The notes under the pieces: generated by a model
What the model was told of the DNA's origin: nothing
The model's database searches: none
What the model saw: the letters and a program-made list of their open reading frames with translations, nothing else
IMG/VR virus record: IMGVR_UViG_3300032292_000618
Span: 32,001 to 96,000 of that record
Reading direction: 5' to 3' (one strand)
Source: a virus
Lineage: Duplodnaviria; Caudoviricetes
Length of the DNA: 64,000 nt
Program-made: the position numbers and the translations under genes
In this document: positions 42,409-49,568 of the stretch, in pieces
How positions within the stretch are numbered: the first letter of the stretch is position 1
How the letters are laid out: every line of letters begins with the position of its first letter

Positions 42409-42452
42409 TACGTTCACCCATAAGGGCGGAAGTAGGGAAACTGAAGGAACGC
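42409..42452 (+). ncRNA. Glutamine riboswitch (glnA RNA motif, class I)
   Basis: P1 CGTTC/GAACG, P2 CCC-ATAA-GGG, GGAAGTA...TGAAG E-loop core, minimal P3 closed by a GAAA loop. Confidence 0.85.
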
Positions 42453-42483
42453 ACCAATACCCACAAAGTAAAGGAGCAAACCT

Positions 42484-44268: not shown

Positions 44269-44727
44269 ATGAGCTATGATAATCCTTGGAAATATCAAGG
44301 AAAGGTCTTTGAATCAGAAGATATTCAAGACAACTTTGGATTTGTTTATCTTATCACAAATAAAATAAATTCAAAACAATATATTGGTAGGAAGTATTTT
44401 TGGGCTTTTAGAACGCCTAAAGGAAAAAAAAGAAAAGTAAAACAAGAAAGTGATTGGAAAAAGTATTATGGGTCTTGTCCAGAACTTAAAGAAGATATCA
44501 TCAAGTATGGTAGAGAGAATTTTGTTAGAGTTGTTCTCTCAATACATCAAACAAAGGGCAAAACTAATTATGAGGAAACAAGGCAACTGTTTGTCAACAA
44601 CGTCCTCACTGAGTCCCTTGACAACGGAGACCCAGCATTCTATAATAGCAACATCCTCTCAAGATATTTTAGGAAAGATTATTATGAACCAATCGCAAAT
44701 GATCACTCTTTGCCAAAAAGAAGTTGA
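44269..44727 (+). CDS. GIY-YIG family endonuclease (T4 endonuclease II/Seg-like)
   Basis: GFVYLITN...YIGRK, WKKYYGS, FYNSNI. Confidence 0.85.
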   Translation: MSYDNPWKYQGKVFESEDIQDNFGFVYLITNKINSKQYIGRKYFWAFRTPKGKKRKVKQESDWKKYYGSCPELKEDIIKYGRENFVRVVLSIHQTKGKTNYEETRQLFVNNVLTESLDNGDPAFYNSNILSRYFRKDYYEPIANDHSLPKRS

Positions 44728-45004: not shown

Positions 45005-45655
45005 ATGCTTTCAAACTTTACACTTGTGACTGTTTCTCTTATTGGAGCAGTTGCAACATCAGCGGCAACACTGCCATCACCTAGTTTTGCTACTTCCACA
45101 GTTAAGCAACCATTTGCTATTATTCAAGAAGAACCAAGTAAAACTAAAGAGACAGCGACCAAAGAGGTTGCTCCAGAAAACCCAAAGGAGAAAAAGTTAA
45201 TTTGTAAAGGGTGTAATACATATGAATCCCATGCTCTGGAATTTCTCCAGAAAAAAGGAATCACTGACAAAAATGCCCTTGCTACCATTATGGGCAATAT
45301 TAGGCAAGAGTCAACATTTATTCCTAATATTTGCGAAGGTGGTGCTAGAACATCATATCATGGATGTACCAGTGGAGGTTATGGATTAATTCAATGGACA
45401 TCTAGTGATAGGTATCGTGGGTTAGGCGTTCATGCTACCAGAATTGGTAGTAGTGCATCTTCTATTGATACTCAATTAGATTATATGTTCACTGAACAAC
45501 AGTGGAAAAGAATTGAAAACCACATGAAAAGGCCAGGAAAATCTATTAATGACTATATGCGTCTTGCTTATAGTTGGATTGGTTGGGGTCATCATGGTTC
45601 TAGGACTTATTATGCTTATGACTATGCTAGAAAAATGACATTTTCTAATAGTTGA
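45005..45655 (+). CDS. Secreted phage-tail-lysozyme-like cell wall hydrolase
   Basis: Signal-peptide-like N-terminus; ALATIMGNIRQES and GGYGLIQWT motifs. Confidence 0.75.
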   Translation: MLSNFTLVTVSLIGAVATSAATLPSPSFATSTVKQPFAIIQEEPSKTKETATKEVAPENPKEKKLICKGCNTYESHALEFLQKKGITDKNALATIMGNIRQESTFIPNICEGGARTSYHGCTSGGYGLIQWTSSDRYRGLGVHATRIGSSASSIDTQLDYMFTEQQWKRIENHMKRPGKSINDYMRLAYSWIGWGHHGSRTYYAYDYARKMTFSNS

Positions 45656-45680
45656 CAAACTGAATAGTGGGAGTTATAAT
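45652..45680 (+). promoter_or_regulatory. Consensus sigma70 promoter for tRNA-Gly
   Basis: TTGACA-N17-TATAAT. Confidence 0.85.
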
Positions 45681-45695
45681 ACTCCCATACTTAAT

Positions 45696-45766
45696 GCGAA
45701 ATTGGTGTAGTGGTAACATCCCATCCTTCCAAGTTGGTGTCACGGGTTCGAATCCCGTATTTCGCT
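45696..45766 (+). tRNA. tRNA-Gly(UCC)
   Basis: Acceptor GCGAAAT/ATTTCGC, anticodon loop CT-TCC-AA, GGTTCGAATCC T arm; CCA not encoded. Confidence 0.92.
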
Positions 45767-45829
45767 TCCCCAGATTATTCTGGGTTTTTTTATAAATAAA
45801 AACTGTAGTTATAATTCTTAACAAACTAT

Positions 45830-47812: not shown

Positions 47813-47967
47813 TGGATCAACACACCTATGATAATTGGGTGAAAATAAAAGAAACATTTGAAAAATCTGGTAATACCAATAATATGTTTTACAAAAGAGC
47901 ATGTGCTATAATAAAAACTAAAATAGATCCTATGGATAAATTTTGGAGCAACAAAGAAAAAGCTTGA
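47812..47967 (+). CDS. Small hypothetical protein (51 aa)
   Basis: TAATG overlap; MDQHTYDNWVKIKETFEKSGNTNNMFYKRAC... Confidence 0.6.
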   Translation: MDQHTYDNWVKIKETFEKSGNTNNMFYKRACAIIKTKIDPMDKFWSNKEKA

Positions 47968-48013
47968 CCTAACCCCAAGTTTATAGTATGATAACTAAAT
48001 CAACTTCAACATT

Positions 48014-48205
48014 ATGGAACAATTTACTATTGAACACTTTCAACAAGATTTTGATAATTTGTTGAATAGAGTTGAAAATGGAGAATCATTTTTAATCACA
48101 AGTGAATATGGTAATGCTGTAATGACTCCTTATGTTGGAAAAAACCAACTAAGTCTAGTTGATGAATTTGTTAAGATCCACACAGAACATGAAGATGGAC
48201 CTTAA
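48014..48205 (+). CDS. Phd/YefM antitoxin-like protein
   Basis: FTIEHFQQDFDNLLNRVENGESFLIT...AVMTP; promoter TTGACC-N17-TATGAT at 47964-47992. Confidence 0.6.
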   Translation: MEQFTIEHFQQDFDNLLNRVENGESFLITSEYGNAVMTPYVGKNQLSLVDEFVKIHTEHEDGP

Positions 48206-48213
48206 CTTTTTTA

Positions 48214-48285
48214 GGGAGTATAGCTTAATGGTTAGAGCGGGCTCCTTATAAGGGCTTAGTCTGGGTTCAACTCCCAGTATTCCCA
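48214..48285 (+). tRNA. tRNA-Ile(UAU)
   Basis: Acceptor GGGAGTA/TATTCCC, anticodon loop CT-TAT-AA, GGTTCAACTCC T arm. Confidence 0.88.
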
Positions 48286-48310
48286 TTTGCTATTCGCAAA
48301 TAGCAAATAT

Positions 48311-48387
48311 AGTCATGGAGAGACTTTAAAAACCCTGGTCGGGATGAACCCCCTTCAGTCATGGAGAGACTTTAAAAATCCTGGTGG
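48311..48387 (+). repeat. Two direct repeats AGTCATGGAGAGACTTTAAAAA(C/T)CCTGGT
   Basis: Copies start at 48311 and 48357 (46-nt period). Confidence 0.9.
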
Positions 48388-48403
48388 AGTCAATATGACC
48401 CTC

Positions 48404-48510
48404 ATTAGGTTTCCAATTTCCTCAAAAAATTGGTGGTGCGGATGGAGGTTACTCCCGCCTGGTTTCCAATTTCCAGTTAAAGAATTGGTGGCGTGCATGA
48501 AAGACCTAAT
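48404..48510 (+). ncRNA. wcaG-type cyanophage RNA with two pseudoknot units
   Basis: GGTTTCCAATTTCC...AATTGGTGG twice, TGGYG motifs; upstream of gmd/fcl. Confidence 0.65.
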
Positions 48511-48546
48511 AGGAGAGTTGCATAAACTCTCCTTTTTTAGTATAAT
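48511..48546 (+). terminator. Terminator overlapping a sigma70 promoter for gmd
   Basis: AGGAGAG...CTCTCCT plus T run; TTGCAT-N17-TATAAT at 48518-48546. Confidence 0.7.
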
Positions 48547-48566
48547 AATGAAAAAGTAATCTGTAT

Positions 48567-49568
48567 ATGAAAGTAGCTTTAATTACTGGTATCACTGGCC
48601 AAGATGGATCGTATCTTGCTGAATTATTACTCCAAAAAGGTTATGAAGTTCATGGCATTATTAGAAGGTCTTCCCTTATCAATACGCATCGTATTGATCA
48701 TGTATATGATTCAATTAATTTGCATTATGGGGACCTTACTGATGCTACGAACTTAGTTAGAGTTATTCAACAAGTTCAACCAGATGAAATCTATAACCTT
48801 GCTGCACAAAGTCATGTAAAGGTATCTTTTGAGATGCCTGAGTACACTGCTGATGTTGATGGTGTTGGCACACTAAGGATCCTAGAATCAGTTAGGTTGC
48901 TTGGTATGGAAGATAAAGTGAGAATCTATCAGGCATCTACATCTGAACTGTATGGACTTGTTCAGGAAATCCCTCAGAAAGAAACAACACCTTTTTATCC
49001 TAGGTCTCCTTATGGTGTTGCTAAGTTATATGCTTATTGGATCACAAAGAACTATAGAGAAGCGTATGACATGTATGCCTGTACTGGCATCCTGTTCAAT
49101 CACGAATCTCCTAGAAGAGGAGAAACATTTGTAACTAGAAAGATTGTTAGAGCACTATCTAAAATTTCTTGTGGTTTGCAAGATACATTATATCTGGGCA
49201 ACCTTAATGCCCAAAGAGATTGGGGTCATGCAAAAGATTATGTAGAAGCAATGTGGTTAATGCTCCAGCAAAAATATGCAGATGATTATGTTATTGCAAC
49301 AGGAGAACAATACTCAGTCAGAGAATTTGTAGATAAAGCAGCACCTTACTTTGGATTTAATATTGAATGGAAAGGTAAATATATGGATGAAGTTGGGATT
49401 GATACTAATACTGGAAAAGAGGTTATTAAAGTAGATCCTAAATATTTTAGACCTGCTGAAGTAGAGACTTTGTTAGGTGATGCCTCTAAGGCAAAAGTTG
49501 AATTAGGTTGGGAACCTAAGATTTCATTTGATCAATTAGTTGAGGATATGTGCATTTATGGACAGTAA
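48567..49568 (+). CDS. gmd: GDP-mannose 4,6-dehydratase
   Basis: [34 protein letters not shown]. Confidence 0.97.

What the first reader, a model, noticed from the sequence alone, without database searches (positions are those of the whole stretch)
48285..48538. Array of four hairpin/pseudoknot RNA units (2 x A, 2 x B), insulated from gmd by a terminator
Seen: a perfect hairpin ATTTGCTATT-CGCA-AATAGCAAAT; two A units (AGTC-ATGGAGA-GACT stem with GGA loop, A-rich linker, CCTGGT); two B units (AGG/CCT or CTGG/CCAG stem whose loop CCAATT pairs with downstream AATTGG). Every unit ends in TGGT and a small hairpin, and ATTAGGT/ACCTAAT can enclose the B pair. B resembles the wcaG motif, which has been proposed as cis-regulatory, but here a terminator and a new promoter separate it from gmd. 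Inference: a trans-acting modular RNA, such as protein-sponge decoys or mimics of type III antitoxin pseudoknot repeats.
Basis: partly seen in the sequence, partly recalled or inferred. Interest (0 to 1): 0.7.

Follow-up and report, generated by a model that had tools for sequence, protein, structure and literature searches.

The report
Modular wcaG pseudoknot RNA array
A marine cyanophage carries the known but unexplained wcaG RNA as the last two of four small pseudoknot modules, separated from the sugar gene it was thought to control by a terminator with a promoter built into it, so it is probably not a simple riboswitch leader.

Summary
The two 'B units' are one Rfam wcaG RNA (RF01761, 94 bits). 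The two 'A units' have no Rfam family, but they are real. Such modules lie upstream of wcaG in 80% of independent cyanophage loci and occur only beside wcaG. Both wcaG halves are H-type pseudoknots.

The 'terminator plus new promoter' is a conserved hallmark. 74 of 93 loci have a terminator about 20 nt after the array, and 62 of those carry a sigma70-type promoter with its -35 in the hairpin apex (9 of 199 for other terminators). It occurs once in this 143-kb genome. The element is single-copy and was not found in 151 host-order genomes.

Function is unresolved. I favour a terminator-ended multivalent docking RNA (0.45) over a cis read-through switch for the sugar operon (0.35). A CsrA sponge, a leader peptide and a covarying antiterminator were tested and not supported; the type III antitoxin idea failed its architecture tests.

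This scan has noted the same modular array on other phage DNA. Weinberg 2010 already recorded the UGGYG duplication and one pseudoknot.

The parts
47964..47992 (+). sigma70-type promoter-like site (TTGACC, 17 nt, TATGAT) heading the unit that contains the array
   Evidence: 10 of 12 matches. No terminator-like site on the + strand between it and 48511. That it is the start of the transcript is inferred.
48014..48205 (+). 63-aa Phd-like antitoxin ORF with no toxin partner
   Evidence: phrog_375 'Phd-like antitoxin', E=2.4e-11. Pfam PhdYeFM 17 bits, below the cut-off. The homologue in L123 passes Pfam's cut-off. Found upstream of the array in only 5 loci.
48214..48285 (+). tRNA-Ile (anticodon UAU)
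   Evidence: Rfam tRNA 65.3 bits; ARAGORN. CCA is not encoded. tRNA 3' processing would create the 5' end of the array RNA (inferred).
48286..48307 (+). perfect 9-10 bp A/U-rich hairpin directly after the tRNA
   Evidence: Also present after tRNA-Ile in L017 and L123, with no covariation. Absent in L082 and L094, where the tRNA abuts the first module.
48311..48356 (+). A module 1: stem 48311-48314 with 48322-48325, 7-nt GG loop 48315-48321, A-rich linker, tertiary pair U48316:A48332, TGGT 48336-48339, short GGG/CCC hairpin 48340-48353
   Evidence: (model R1, 52.2 bits).
48357..48406 (+). A module 2: stem 48357-48360 with 48368-48371, loop 48361-48367, tertiary pair U48362:A48378, TGGT 48382-48385, trailing hairpin 48386-48401
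   Evidence: (48.9 bits).
48407..48438 (+). B module 1 (first half of wcaG): H-type pseudoknot, S1 48407-48409 with 48420-48422, S2 48413-48419 with 48427-48433, then TGGTG
   Evidence: Rfam wcaG. S1 pairing in 88% of loci against 68% permuted.
48438..48458 (+). central GGAU-bulged hairpin of wcaG
   Evidence: alignment. Sequence-invariant across loci (pattern).
48459..48499 (+). B module 2 (second half of wcaG): pseudoknot S1 48459-48462 with 48473-48476, S2 48466-48472 with 48482-48488, terminal TGGCG end motif 48489-48499
   Evidence: 4/4 pairs in 90 of 93 loci with six pair types. This pseudoknot is also annotated in Weinberg 2010's alignment.
48511..48538 (+). intrinsic terminator (9-bp stem, 5-nt loop, T-run)
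   Evidence: Stems covary across loci while the apex is conserved. Median 22 nt after the last S2.
48518..48546 (+). nested sigma70-type promoter: -35 TTGCAT in the terminator apex, 17-nt spacer, -10 TATAAT
   Evidence: the only such composite in the 143-kb genome; present at 62 of 74 terminators after wcaG against 9 of 199 elsewhere; 17-nt spacer in 60 of 62.
48567..49568 (+). gmd (GDP-mannose 4,6-dehydratase), first gene of a nucleotide-sugar operon
   Evidence: PF16363, 520 bits. Followed by an fcl-type epimerase and a HAD-nucleotidyltransferase.

Best explanation
The element is one single-copy, phage-specific RNA locus. It consists of an Rfam wcaG RNA (two H-type pseudoknot modules joined by a GGAU hairpin) preceded by two copies of a smaller pseudoknot module that has no Rfam family.

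It is transcribed as the non-coding tail of an early unit: promoter near 47964, Phd-like ORF, tRNA-Ile, hairpin, then the four modules. It ends at the intrinsic terminator 48511-48538. The terminator's loop holds the -35 box of a separate promoter for gmd, so gmd messages made from that promoter start about 13 nt before the ATG and do not contain the RNA.

Most likely (inferred) the RNA is a self-standing structured RNA of about 230-250 nt, released at its 5' end by tRNA processing. Each module acts as an independent scaffold that displays the same invariant single-stranded G-rich elements (the UGGY tail and the GG of the loop). Together they form a multivalent docking platform for a factor not yet identified, rather than a one-ligand riboswitch leader of gmd.

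Shown: the anatomy, covariation, conservation and distribution. Inferred: the transcript ends, the autonomy of the RNA and the docking role.
For: - Identity: wcaG at 94.1 bits; A modules have no Rfam hit at E<=10.
- A modules accompany wcaG in 57 of 71 independent loci. In complete genomes they are found only beside wcaG.
- Structure: the A stem covaries. The tertiary pair is 56 C:G, 32 U:A and 0 unpaired; a second pair holds in 35 of 35 units. B2 S1 pairs in 90 of 93 loci, and B1 S1 in 88% against 68% permuted.
- Insulation: the composite terminator/promoter is specific to arrays (62 of 74 against 9 of 199, p=5e-39) and the ATG lies a median 20 nt after the -10 box. It occurs once in the genome. 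gmd in P-SSM2, ACG-2014f and S-CAM7 has no array or terminator directly upstream.
- No locus-specific antiterminator: native -9.10 against non-native -9.09 kcal/mol, p=0.90; positive control -14.0 against -6.3.
- Modularity: the number and type of modules vary, and a 90-aa ORF lies directly upstream of the wcaG core in 23 loci.
- About 10-15% of arrays are followed by tRNA genes rather than an mRNA.
- Distribution: single place per record in 129 phage records; 0 of 151 host-order genomes.
- Literature: Weinberg 2010 noted that the duplicated UGGYG may be a dimeric-protein site. The sister motif manA forms RNA-only assemblies in vitro.
Against: - About 60% of first downstream genes are nucleotide-sugar enzymes of several unrelated families.
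- In S-CAM7 and ACG-2014f the element again sits at the 5' edge of the sugar-gene block. This is the pattern expected of a cis regulator.
- The terminator sits at a tightly fixed distance from the array, as an expression platform would.
- No binding partner is identified: CsrA is absent and upstream ORFs are of many unrelated families.
- No transcript data were available, so the RNA ends and the activity of the promoter are inferred from sequence.
- Direct tRNA adjacency is no more frequent than the local tRNA density predicts.
Confidence: 0.45

Rival explanations
1. Cis-acting read-through switch. The array is a sensor, for a metabolite, a protein or uncharged tRNA, that sets how many polymerases coming from the upstream promoter pass the terminator at 48511-48538 into the sugar operon. 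The nested promoter supplies only a basal level of expression.
For: - Original classification as a probable cis-regulator and riboswitch candidate.
- About 60% of downstream genes are nucleotide-sugar enzymes from several non-homologous families.
- The array sits at the 5' boundary of the sugar block in other genera.
- The terminator lies a median 22 nt after the last module.
- Standalone A modules sit directly before start codons, with an SD-like GGAG in the trailing hairpin.
Against: - No covarying antiterminator.
- A promoter is conserved between the RNA and the gene.
- Some arrays are followed by tRNA genes or lack a terminator.
- The number of modules is variable, and ORFs are nested inside arrays.
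- Not found in host genomes, unlike most phage-borne riboswitch classes.
- No further terminators inside the operon that would call for processive antitermination.
Confidence: 0.35
2. Mobile regulatory cassette. The array plus the terminator/promoter is a PeSL-like shuffling module of T4-type hyperplastic regions. The pseudoknots mainly stabilise or process the 3' end of the upstream early transcript and have no specific partner.
For: - Composite terminator/promoter motifs (PeSLs) are described for T4-like phages and tied to modular shuffling.
- Upstream and downstream neighbours vary widely between loci.
- The head of module A1 differs from that of its closest relative L082 while the tail is shared, suggesting exchange of module parts.
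Against: - PeSLs occur many times per genome, whereas this composite occurs once.
- The invariant unpaired bases (UGGY, GG, UUU linker) and covarying tertiary pairs are far more constrained than a stabilising hairpin needs.
Confidence: 0.1
3. Protein sponge of the CsrB/RsmZ kind, or a decoy of type III antitoxin repeats.
For: - A-module loops carry GGA in a short hairpin loop, as CsrA sites do (from memory of the CsrA/RsmE literature; loops listed).
- The order of repeats, then terminator, then gene resembles type III loci.
- A Phd-like antitoxin lies upstream.
Against: - CsrA is absent from the phage and from 151 host-order genomes, with controls positive.
- No near-identical tandem repeats, and no Rfam antitoxin hit at E<=10.
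- The downstream gene is gmd, not a nuclease.
- ToxN was not found in 151 host-order genomes, but without a positive control.
Confidence: 0.04
4. Leader-peptide attenuation. The 90-codon open frame at 48287-48559 (with GGAG, 5 nt, then ATG at 48395) is translated through the array, and the ribosome disrupts the terminator.
For: The frame is open in the window, and in L017 and L082 it ends in or next to the terminator.
Against: - 17 of 87 loci have no open frame across the core, and only 27 of 87 have an in-frame ATG.
- The reverse complement is as open as the forward strand, 1.18 against 1.01 frames.
- Compensatory stem changes would scramble any peptide.
Confidence: 0.02

Closest known systems
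wcaG RNA motif (Rfam RF01761; Weinberg et al. 2010, PMC2864571)
   Same: - Positions 48405-48502 are a full-length, high-scoring member (94 bits).
- Two hairpins, each followed by UGGYG, a central hairpin, and the pseudoknot of the second hairpin.
- T4-like cyanophage origin, upstream of nucleotide-sugar genes.
   Different: - The published motif is described as a two-hairpin 5'-UTR element and riboswitch candidate.
- Here it is the 3' end of a longer chain with two extra A-type pseudoknot modules.
- The first hairpin is also a pseudoknot.
- A conserved promoter nested in the terminator separates the RNA from the gene.
- The 2010 raw alignment already contains some A-type hairpins aligned as 'P1' and marks terminators, but neither is described.
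PeSL composite promoter/terminator motifs of T4-like phages (Arbiol 2010, PMC2839356; Comeau 2014, PMC4122927)
   Same: A stem-loop terminator fused to a sigma70-type early promoter at the border of variable genes.
   Different: - PeSLs are numerous per genome and stand alone. This one is unique in the genome and always attached to the wcaG array.
- The -35 box sits in the hairpin apex.
- PeSLs are not mentioned for cyanophages in PMC4122927.
manA RNA motif (RF01745)
   Same: - An orphan cyanophage/marine riboswitch candidate with similar gene neighbourhoods.
- In S-CREM1 it lies in the same tRNA-rich region, flush between two tRNAs.
   Different: - No shared modules or sequence, and no manA hit in the window.
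- manA forms RNA-only oligomers in vitro; wcaG has not been tested.
T-box antiterminator and other NCCA readers
   Same: Invariant single-stranded UGGN between two helices just upstream of a terminator, where UGGN is complementary to NCCA (sequence; T-box mechanism from general knowledge).
   Different: - No Stem I or specifier, and no T-box hit at E<=10.
- No covarying antiterminator.
- Only one tail type is complementary to a specific tRNA beyond 4-5 nt.

Membership tests
wcaG RNA (RF01761) | Covariance-model score at or above the gathering score (42 bits), full length | tested here: met
   94.1 bits, model positions 1-98 of 98, at 48405-48502
wcaG RNA (RF01761) | Two hairpins, each followed by a conserved UGGYG, with a central hairpin between them | tested here: met
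   alignment. UGGYG duplication as described by the authors. Parsed in 93 loci.
wcaG RNA (RF01761) | Pseudoknot between the 5' flank and the loop of the second hairpin (SS_cons_1 in the authors' alignment) | tested here: met
   Window 48459-48462 with 48473-48476. 90 of 93 loci pair 4/4, with six pair types. Annotation seen.
wcaG RNA (RF01761) | Cyanophage or marine origin, upstream of exopolysaccharide/nucleotide-sugar or high-light genes | tested here: met
   gmd follows. Relatives are all Synechococcus phages or cyanophages. About 60% of neighbours are sugar genes.
Riboswitch (transcriptional) | Lies in the 5' UTR of the regulated mRNA | tested here: inconclusive
   A conserved promoter lies between the RNA and the gene, leaving a leader of about 13 nt. 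Read-through transcripts from upstream would still contain the RNA. No transcript data were available.
Riboswitch (transcriptional) | Expression platform: the terminator competes with an alternative pairing to the aptamer | tested here: not met
   Native and non-native arm/array duplex energies are equal (p=0.90 and 0.42), and the positive control works. Pairing to invariant segments cannot be excluded by this test.
Riboswitch (transcriptional) | Selective ligand binding | not testable with these tools
   Needs in-line probing or ITC.
CsrB/RsmZ-type sponge RNA | Cognate CsrA/RsmA protein in the host or phage | tested here: not met
   PF02599: nothing over the cut-off in the phage; 0 of 151 host-order genomes; controls ring in E. 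coli, B. subtilis and T. maritima.
CsrB/RsmZ-type sponge RNA | Multiple GGA motifs in hairpin loops | tested here: met
   A-module loops carry GGA, GGG or GGU, but there are only two such loops in this array.
Type III antitoxin RNA (ToxI-like) | Tandem near-identical repeats of about 36 nt followed by a terminator and an endoribonuclease toxin gene | tested here: not met
   TRF finds no array. There are two module types. The downstream gene is gmd. No Rfam hit at E<=10.
Type III antitoxin RNA (ToxI-like) | ToxN-family toxin in the host clade (needed for a decoy role) | tested here: inconclusive
   PF13958: 0 of 151 genomes, but no control genome rang.
PeSL composite promoter/terminator | Stem-loop terminator fused to an early sigma70-type promoter | tested here: met
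PeSL composite promoter/terminator | Many copies per genome in hyperplastic regions | tested here: not met
   One composite in 143 kb under my criteria. 9 of 199 other terminators in related loci carry one.
T-box leader | Stem I with specifier, plus a T-box antiterminator bulge | tested here: not met
   No RF00230 hit at E<=10. Only the UGGN element is shared.

The most novel reading that the evidence does not exclude
The chain of pseudoknot modules is a phage-made platform that base-pairs with the free CCA-3' ends of uncharged tRNAs through its invariant UGGN tails, as T-box antiterminators do, but several at a time. It would sense or sequester tRNAs during infection. A lead from an earlier scan note prompted this. 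My own test found extended complementarity for only one tail type (UGGUCGGG-type with tRNA-Pro 3' ends, P about 0.05). The other tail types did not exceed shuffled controls.
Probability: 0.1. Interest if true: 0.85.

Novelty: new variant of a known kind. Interest (0 to 1): 0.58.

Why it matters
wcaG has been an orphan riboswitch candidate since 2010. Three findings move it from 'simple 5'-UTR aptamer' towards 'autonomous or polymerase-coupled modular RNA':

- It is the tail of a variable chain of independent pseudoknot modules.
- It is phage-only and single-copy.
- It is regularly cut off from the 'regulated' gene by a terminator with a built-in promoter.

This gives precise, cheap experiments: end mapping, termination assays and compensatory mutants at defined pairs. 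It also cautions against annotating wcaG in cyanophage genomes as a cis-regulator of exopolysaccharide genes. If a partner is found, it would reveal a new way in which abundant marine phages handle host RNA or protein machinery.

Tried and rejected
- **CsrA sponge:** no CsrA in the phage or in 151 host-order genomes.
- **Type III antitoxin decoy:** no tandem repeats, no toxin gene, and ToxN not found, although without a positive control.
- **Leader peptide through the array:** not conserved.
- **Covarying antiterminator:** native equals permuted.
- **Enclosing ATTAGGT/ACCTAAT helix as a family feature:** not conserved.
weaker than the position 2 to -4 pairing.
- **Processive antitermination (put/EAR-like):** no internal + strand terminators in the 12-kb operon.
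- **Strict tRNA linkage:** adjacency in 10-15% of loci, no more than the local density of 0.43 tRNAs per kb predicts.
- **Conserved upstream protein partner:** at least ten unrelated small-ORF families.
- **wcaG in bacteria:** 0 of 151 host-order genomes.
- **manA built of the same modules:** no.
- **tRNA 3'-end complementarity:** only one tail type gives a marginal signal. One search used uncorrected tRNA ends and is superseded.
- **First promoter criterion:** one search excluded the commonest -35 variant and is superseded.

Full report
**What is there**

The stretch 48286-48546 lies between tRNA-Ile(UAU) (48214-48285) and gmd (48567-49568).
- a perfect 10-bp hairpin;
- two 29-nt A copies, 97% identical and 46 nt apart;
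- two B copies 53-55 nt apart;
- a 12-nt inverted repeat followed by a T-run.

The A pattern matches twice in the window against none expected. Tandem Repeats Finder reports nothing, so these are related modules and not near-identical tandem repeats.

**Identity of the B pair**

Rfam scores 48405-48502 as a full-length wcaG RNA (RF01761) at 94.1 bits, against a gathering score of 42. The two 'B units' are therefore one known RNA. A permissive scan (E<=10) gives no family for 48311-48404.

**The A units are real and belong to the same element**

Cultured cyanophages DSL-LC03, S-CREM1, S-RIM4 and S-MS29 carry A-type units directly upstream of wcaG. A pattern scan of viral contigs split cleanly into chance hits and true units. 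True units have a 4-bp covarying stem and a fixed geometry. To avoid circularity I fetched a second set of loci anchored on the wcaG central hairpin.
- 57 of 71 non-redundant loci in that set have an A-type unit within 340 nt upstream. 23 have one within 110 nt.
- A covariance model of the unit (R1) hits complete phage genomes only next to wcaG. In this genome it hits only the two copies.
- The array or part of it occurs at exactly one place in each of 129 phage records, all Synechococcus phages or cyanophages.

**Structure**

On an 89-unit alignment all four stem pairs covary. The stem itself was a selection criterion, so only its variety of pair types is informative. Two tertiary pairs that I did not select for are striking:
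- Loop position 2 pairs with the linker base 4 nt before TGGT in 88 of 88 distinct units (56 C:G, 32 U:A).
- Loop position 5 pairs with the next linker base in 35 of 35 units of the long-linker class (A:U, G:C, U:A).

The A units are therefore pseudoknots, with a different contact from the one proposed. In the window the pairs are U48316:A48332 and U48362:A48378.

Both halves of wcaG are H-type pseudoknots.
- The 4 nt before the UUU linker pair with the start of the loop in 90 of 93 loci for the second half, with six pair types, against 53% when permuted.
- For the first half the figures are 88% against 68%.
- The second-half pseudoknot is already annotated in the 2010 alignment. The first-half one is not.

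Trailing hairpins follow nearly every unit but are conserved by sequence rather than covariation.

**The terminator and promoter**

- 74 of 93 non-redundant wcaG loci have a terminator-like hairpin within 70 nt of the last module, at a median distance of 22 nt.
- The stems covary while the apex is conserved, and the apex reads as a -35 box.
- 62 of those 74 terminators have a -35 in the apex, with a 17-nt spacer in 60 of 62 and TATAAT in 51. Only 9 of 199 other terminator-like hairpins in the same loci do (Fisher p=5e-39).
- The first ATG lies a median 20 nt after the -10 box, which leaves a leader of about 13 nt.
- In this 143-kb genome the composite occurs once.
- gmd in P-SSM2, ACG-2014f and S-CAM7 follows the preceding gene by 3-40 nt with no such element. 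The composite therefore travels with the array and not with gmd.

Composite terminator/promoters (PeSLs) are known in T4-like phages, but there they are numerous per genome.

**Context**

Upstream lie a sigma70-like promoter (47964-47992) and a Phd-like antitoxin ORF. No + strand terminator intervenes before 48511.

Across loci the upstream ORFs belong to at least ten unrelated families. In 23 loci the ORF directly upstream of the wcaG core is a 90-aa membrane-like protein (phrog_2318). In the loci examined by eye (L024, L060, L097) it lies between a leading A unit and the rest of the array.

About 60% of first downstream genes are nucleotide-sugar enzymes of several unrelated folds: SDR epimerases/dehydratases, cytidylyltransferases, a mannose-6-phosphate isomerase cupin, nucleotidyltransferases and glycosyltransferases. 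The remainder include 2OG-Fe(II) oxygenases and tRNA genes. In S-CAM7 and ACG-2014f the element sits one gene upstream of gmd, at the edge of the sugar block.

The neighbourhoods are tRNA-rich (0.43 per kb), but direct adjacency (10-15%) is not above that background.

wcaG was not found in 151 genomes of the host order.

**Mechanism**

I tested the following specific ideas.
- **Riboswitch expression platform.** This predicts that the variable terminator arms are complementary to their own array. Native and permuted pairings are equal, while the control works.
- **Leader peptide.** A peptide translated through the array is not conserved.
- **CsrB-like sponge.** This lacks CsrA in the phage and in the host order.
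- **Type III antitoxin decoy.** The element lacks the defining architecture. ToxN was not found, but without a positive control.
- **Processive antitermination.** This gains nothing, because the operon has no internal terminators.
- **Pairing of UGGN tails with tRNA CCA ends.** This came as a lead from an earlier scan note. With phage-encoded tRNAs, only the UGGUCGGG-type tail shows extended complementarity, to tRNA-Pro, at P about 0.05.

What remains is a choice between two readings.
- **(a) An autonomous, terminator-ended RNA whose modules each display the same unpaired G-rich elements.** Supporting it are the conserved promoter between the RNA and the gene, the variable number of modules, nested ORFs, tRNA genes downstream in some loci, the phage-only distribution, the authors' own remark that the duplicated UGGYG may bind a dimeric protein, and the finding that the sister motif manA forms RNA-only assemblies.
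- **(b) A cis switch on read-through into the sugar operon.** Supporting it are the gene association and the fixed spacing to the terminator.

I put (a) at 0.45 and (b) at 0.35.

**Novelty**

The window holds a bona fide member of a known family. Four things are not in the description I could read:
- the chain of A-type modules with their own covarying tertiary pairs;
- the pseudoknot of the first wcaG half;
- the array-specific nested promoter;
- the absence of a covarying antiterminator.

The 2010 raw alignment already holds some A-type hairpins aligned as P1 and marks terminators. This scan has also reported the modular array on other phage DNA. I class it as a new variant of a known kind.

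Noticed in passing
window 42409-42455 (+): Glutamine riboswitch aptamer (Rfam RF01739, 52 bits against a gathering score of 35), a second small pseudoknotted RNA in the same phage region.
   Followed up: no
window 45652-45784 (+): Self-contained tRNA unit: a perfect TTGACA-17-TATAAT promoter (45652-45680), tRNA-Gly(UCC) at 45696-45766, then a terminator-like hairpin at 45769-45784. Further perfect promoters lie at 44618 and 60750, the latter at the end of the sugar block.
   Followed up: partly
window 48014-48285 (+): A Phd-like antitoxin ORF with no toxin gene, followed by tRNA-Ile with the rare UAU anticodon. The same ORF/tRNA/array order recurs in L017, L082, L098 and L123, but only in those loci.
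   Followed up: partly
window 48287-48559 (+): A 90-codon open frame runs through the whole array, with GGAG, 5 nt, then ATG at 48395. Shown to be incidental: it is not conserved, and the reverse strand is equally open.
   Followed up: yes
L175:21-293, also L024, L060, L097 and about 20 other loci: A 90-aa membrane-like protein (phrog_2318, function unknown) lies directly upstream of the wcaG core. In L024, L060 and L097, read by eye, it sits between a leading A module and the rest of the array, and the A module's trailing hairpin holds an SD-like GGAG about 9 nt before its ATG.
   Followed up: partly
L002:2079-2293 (S-CREM1): The manA RNA is annotated flush between tRNA-Leu and tRNA-Asn, as if it were a gene of the tRNA cluster processed by tRNA-end nucleases. 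An abiF-motif RNA lies two features further on.
   Followed up: no
L004:1640-1760 and L041 (S-MS29 type): The last B module lacks the usual end motif and terminator and abuts tRNA-Leu. The tRNA's own positions 7-12 read GTGGCG, the motif that normally ends the array.
   Followed up: no
window 48311-48356 compared with L082: Module A1 has the head (stem, loop, linker) of the ATGGAGA type but the same trailing hairpin as the TTGGGAT-type first module of the closest relative. This suggests replacement of a module head by its neighbour (gene conversion).
   Followed up: no
several loci, e.g. L050, L054, L060, L121, L038: The first A module overlaps the last codons and the stop codon of the upstream ORF (phrog_481 family). 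The TAA of the A-rich linker serves as the stop codon.
   Followed up: no
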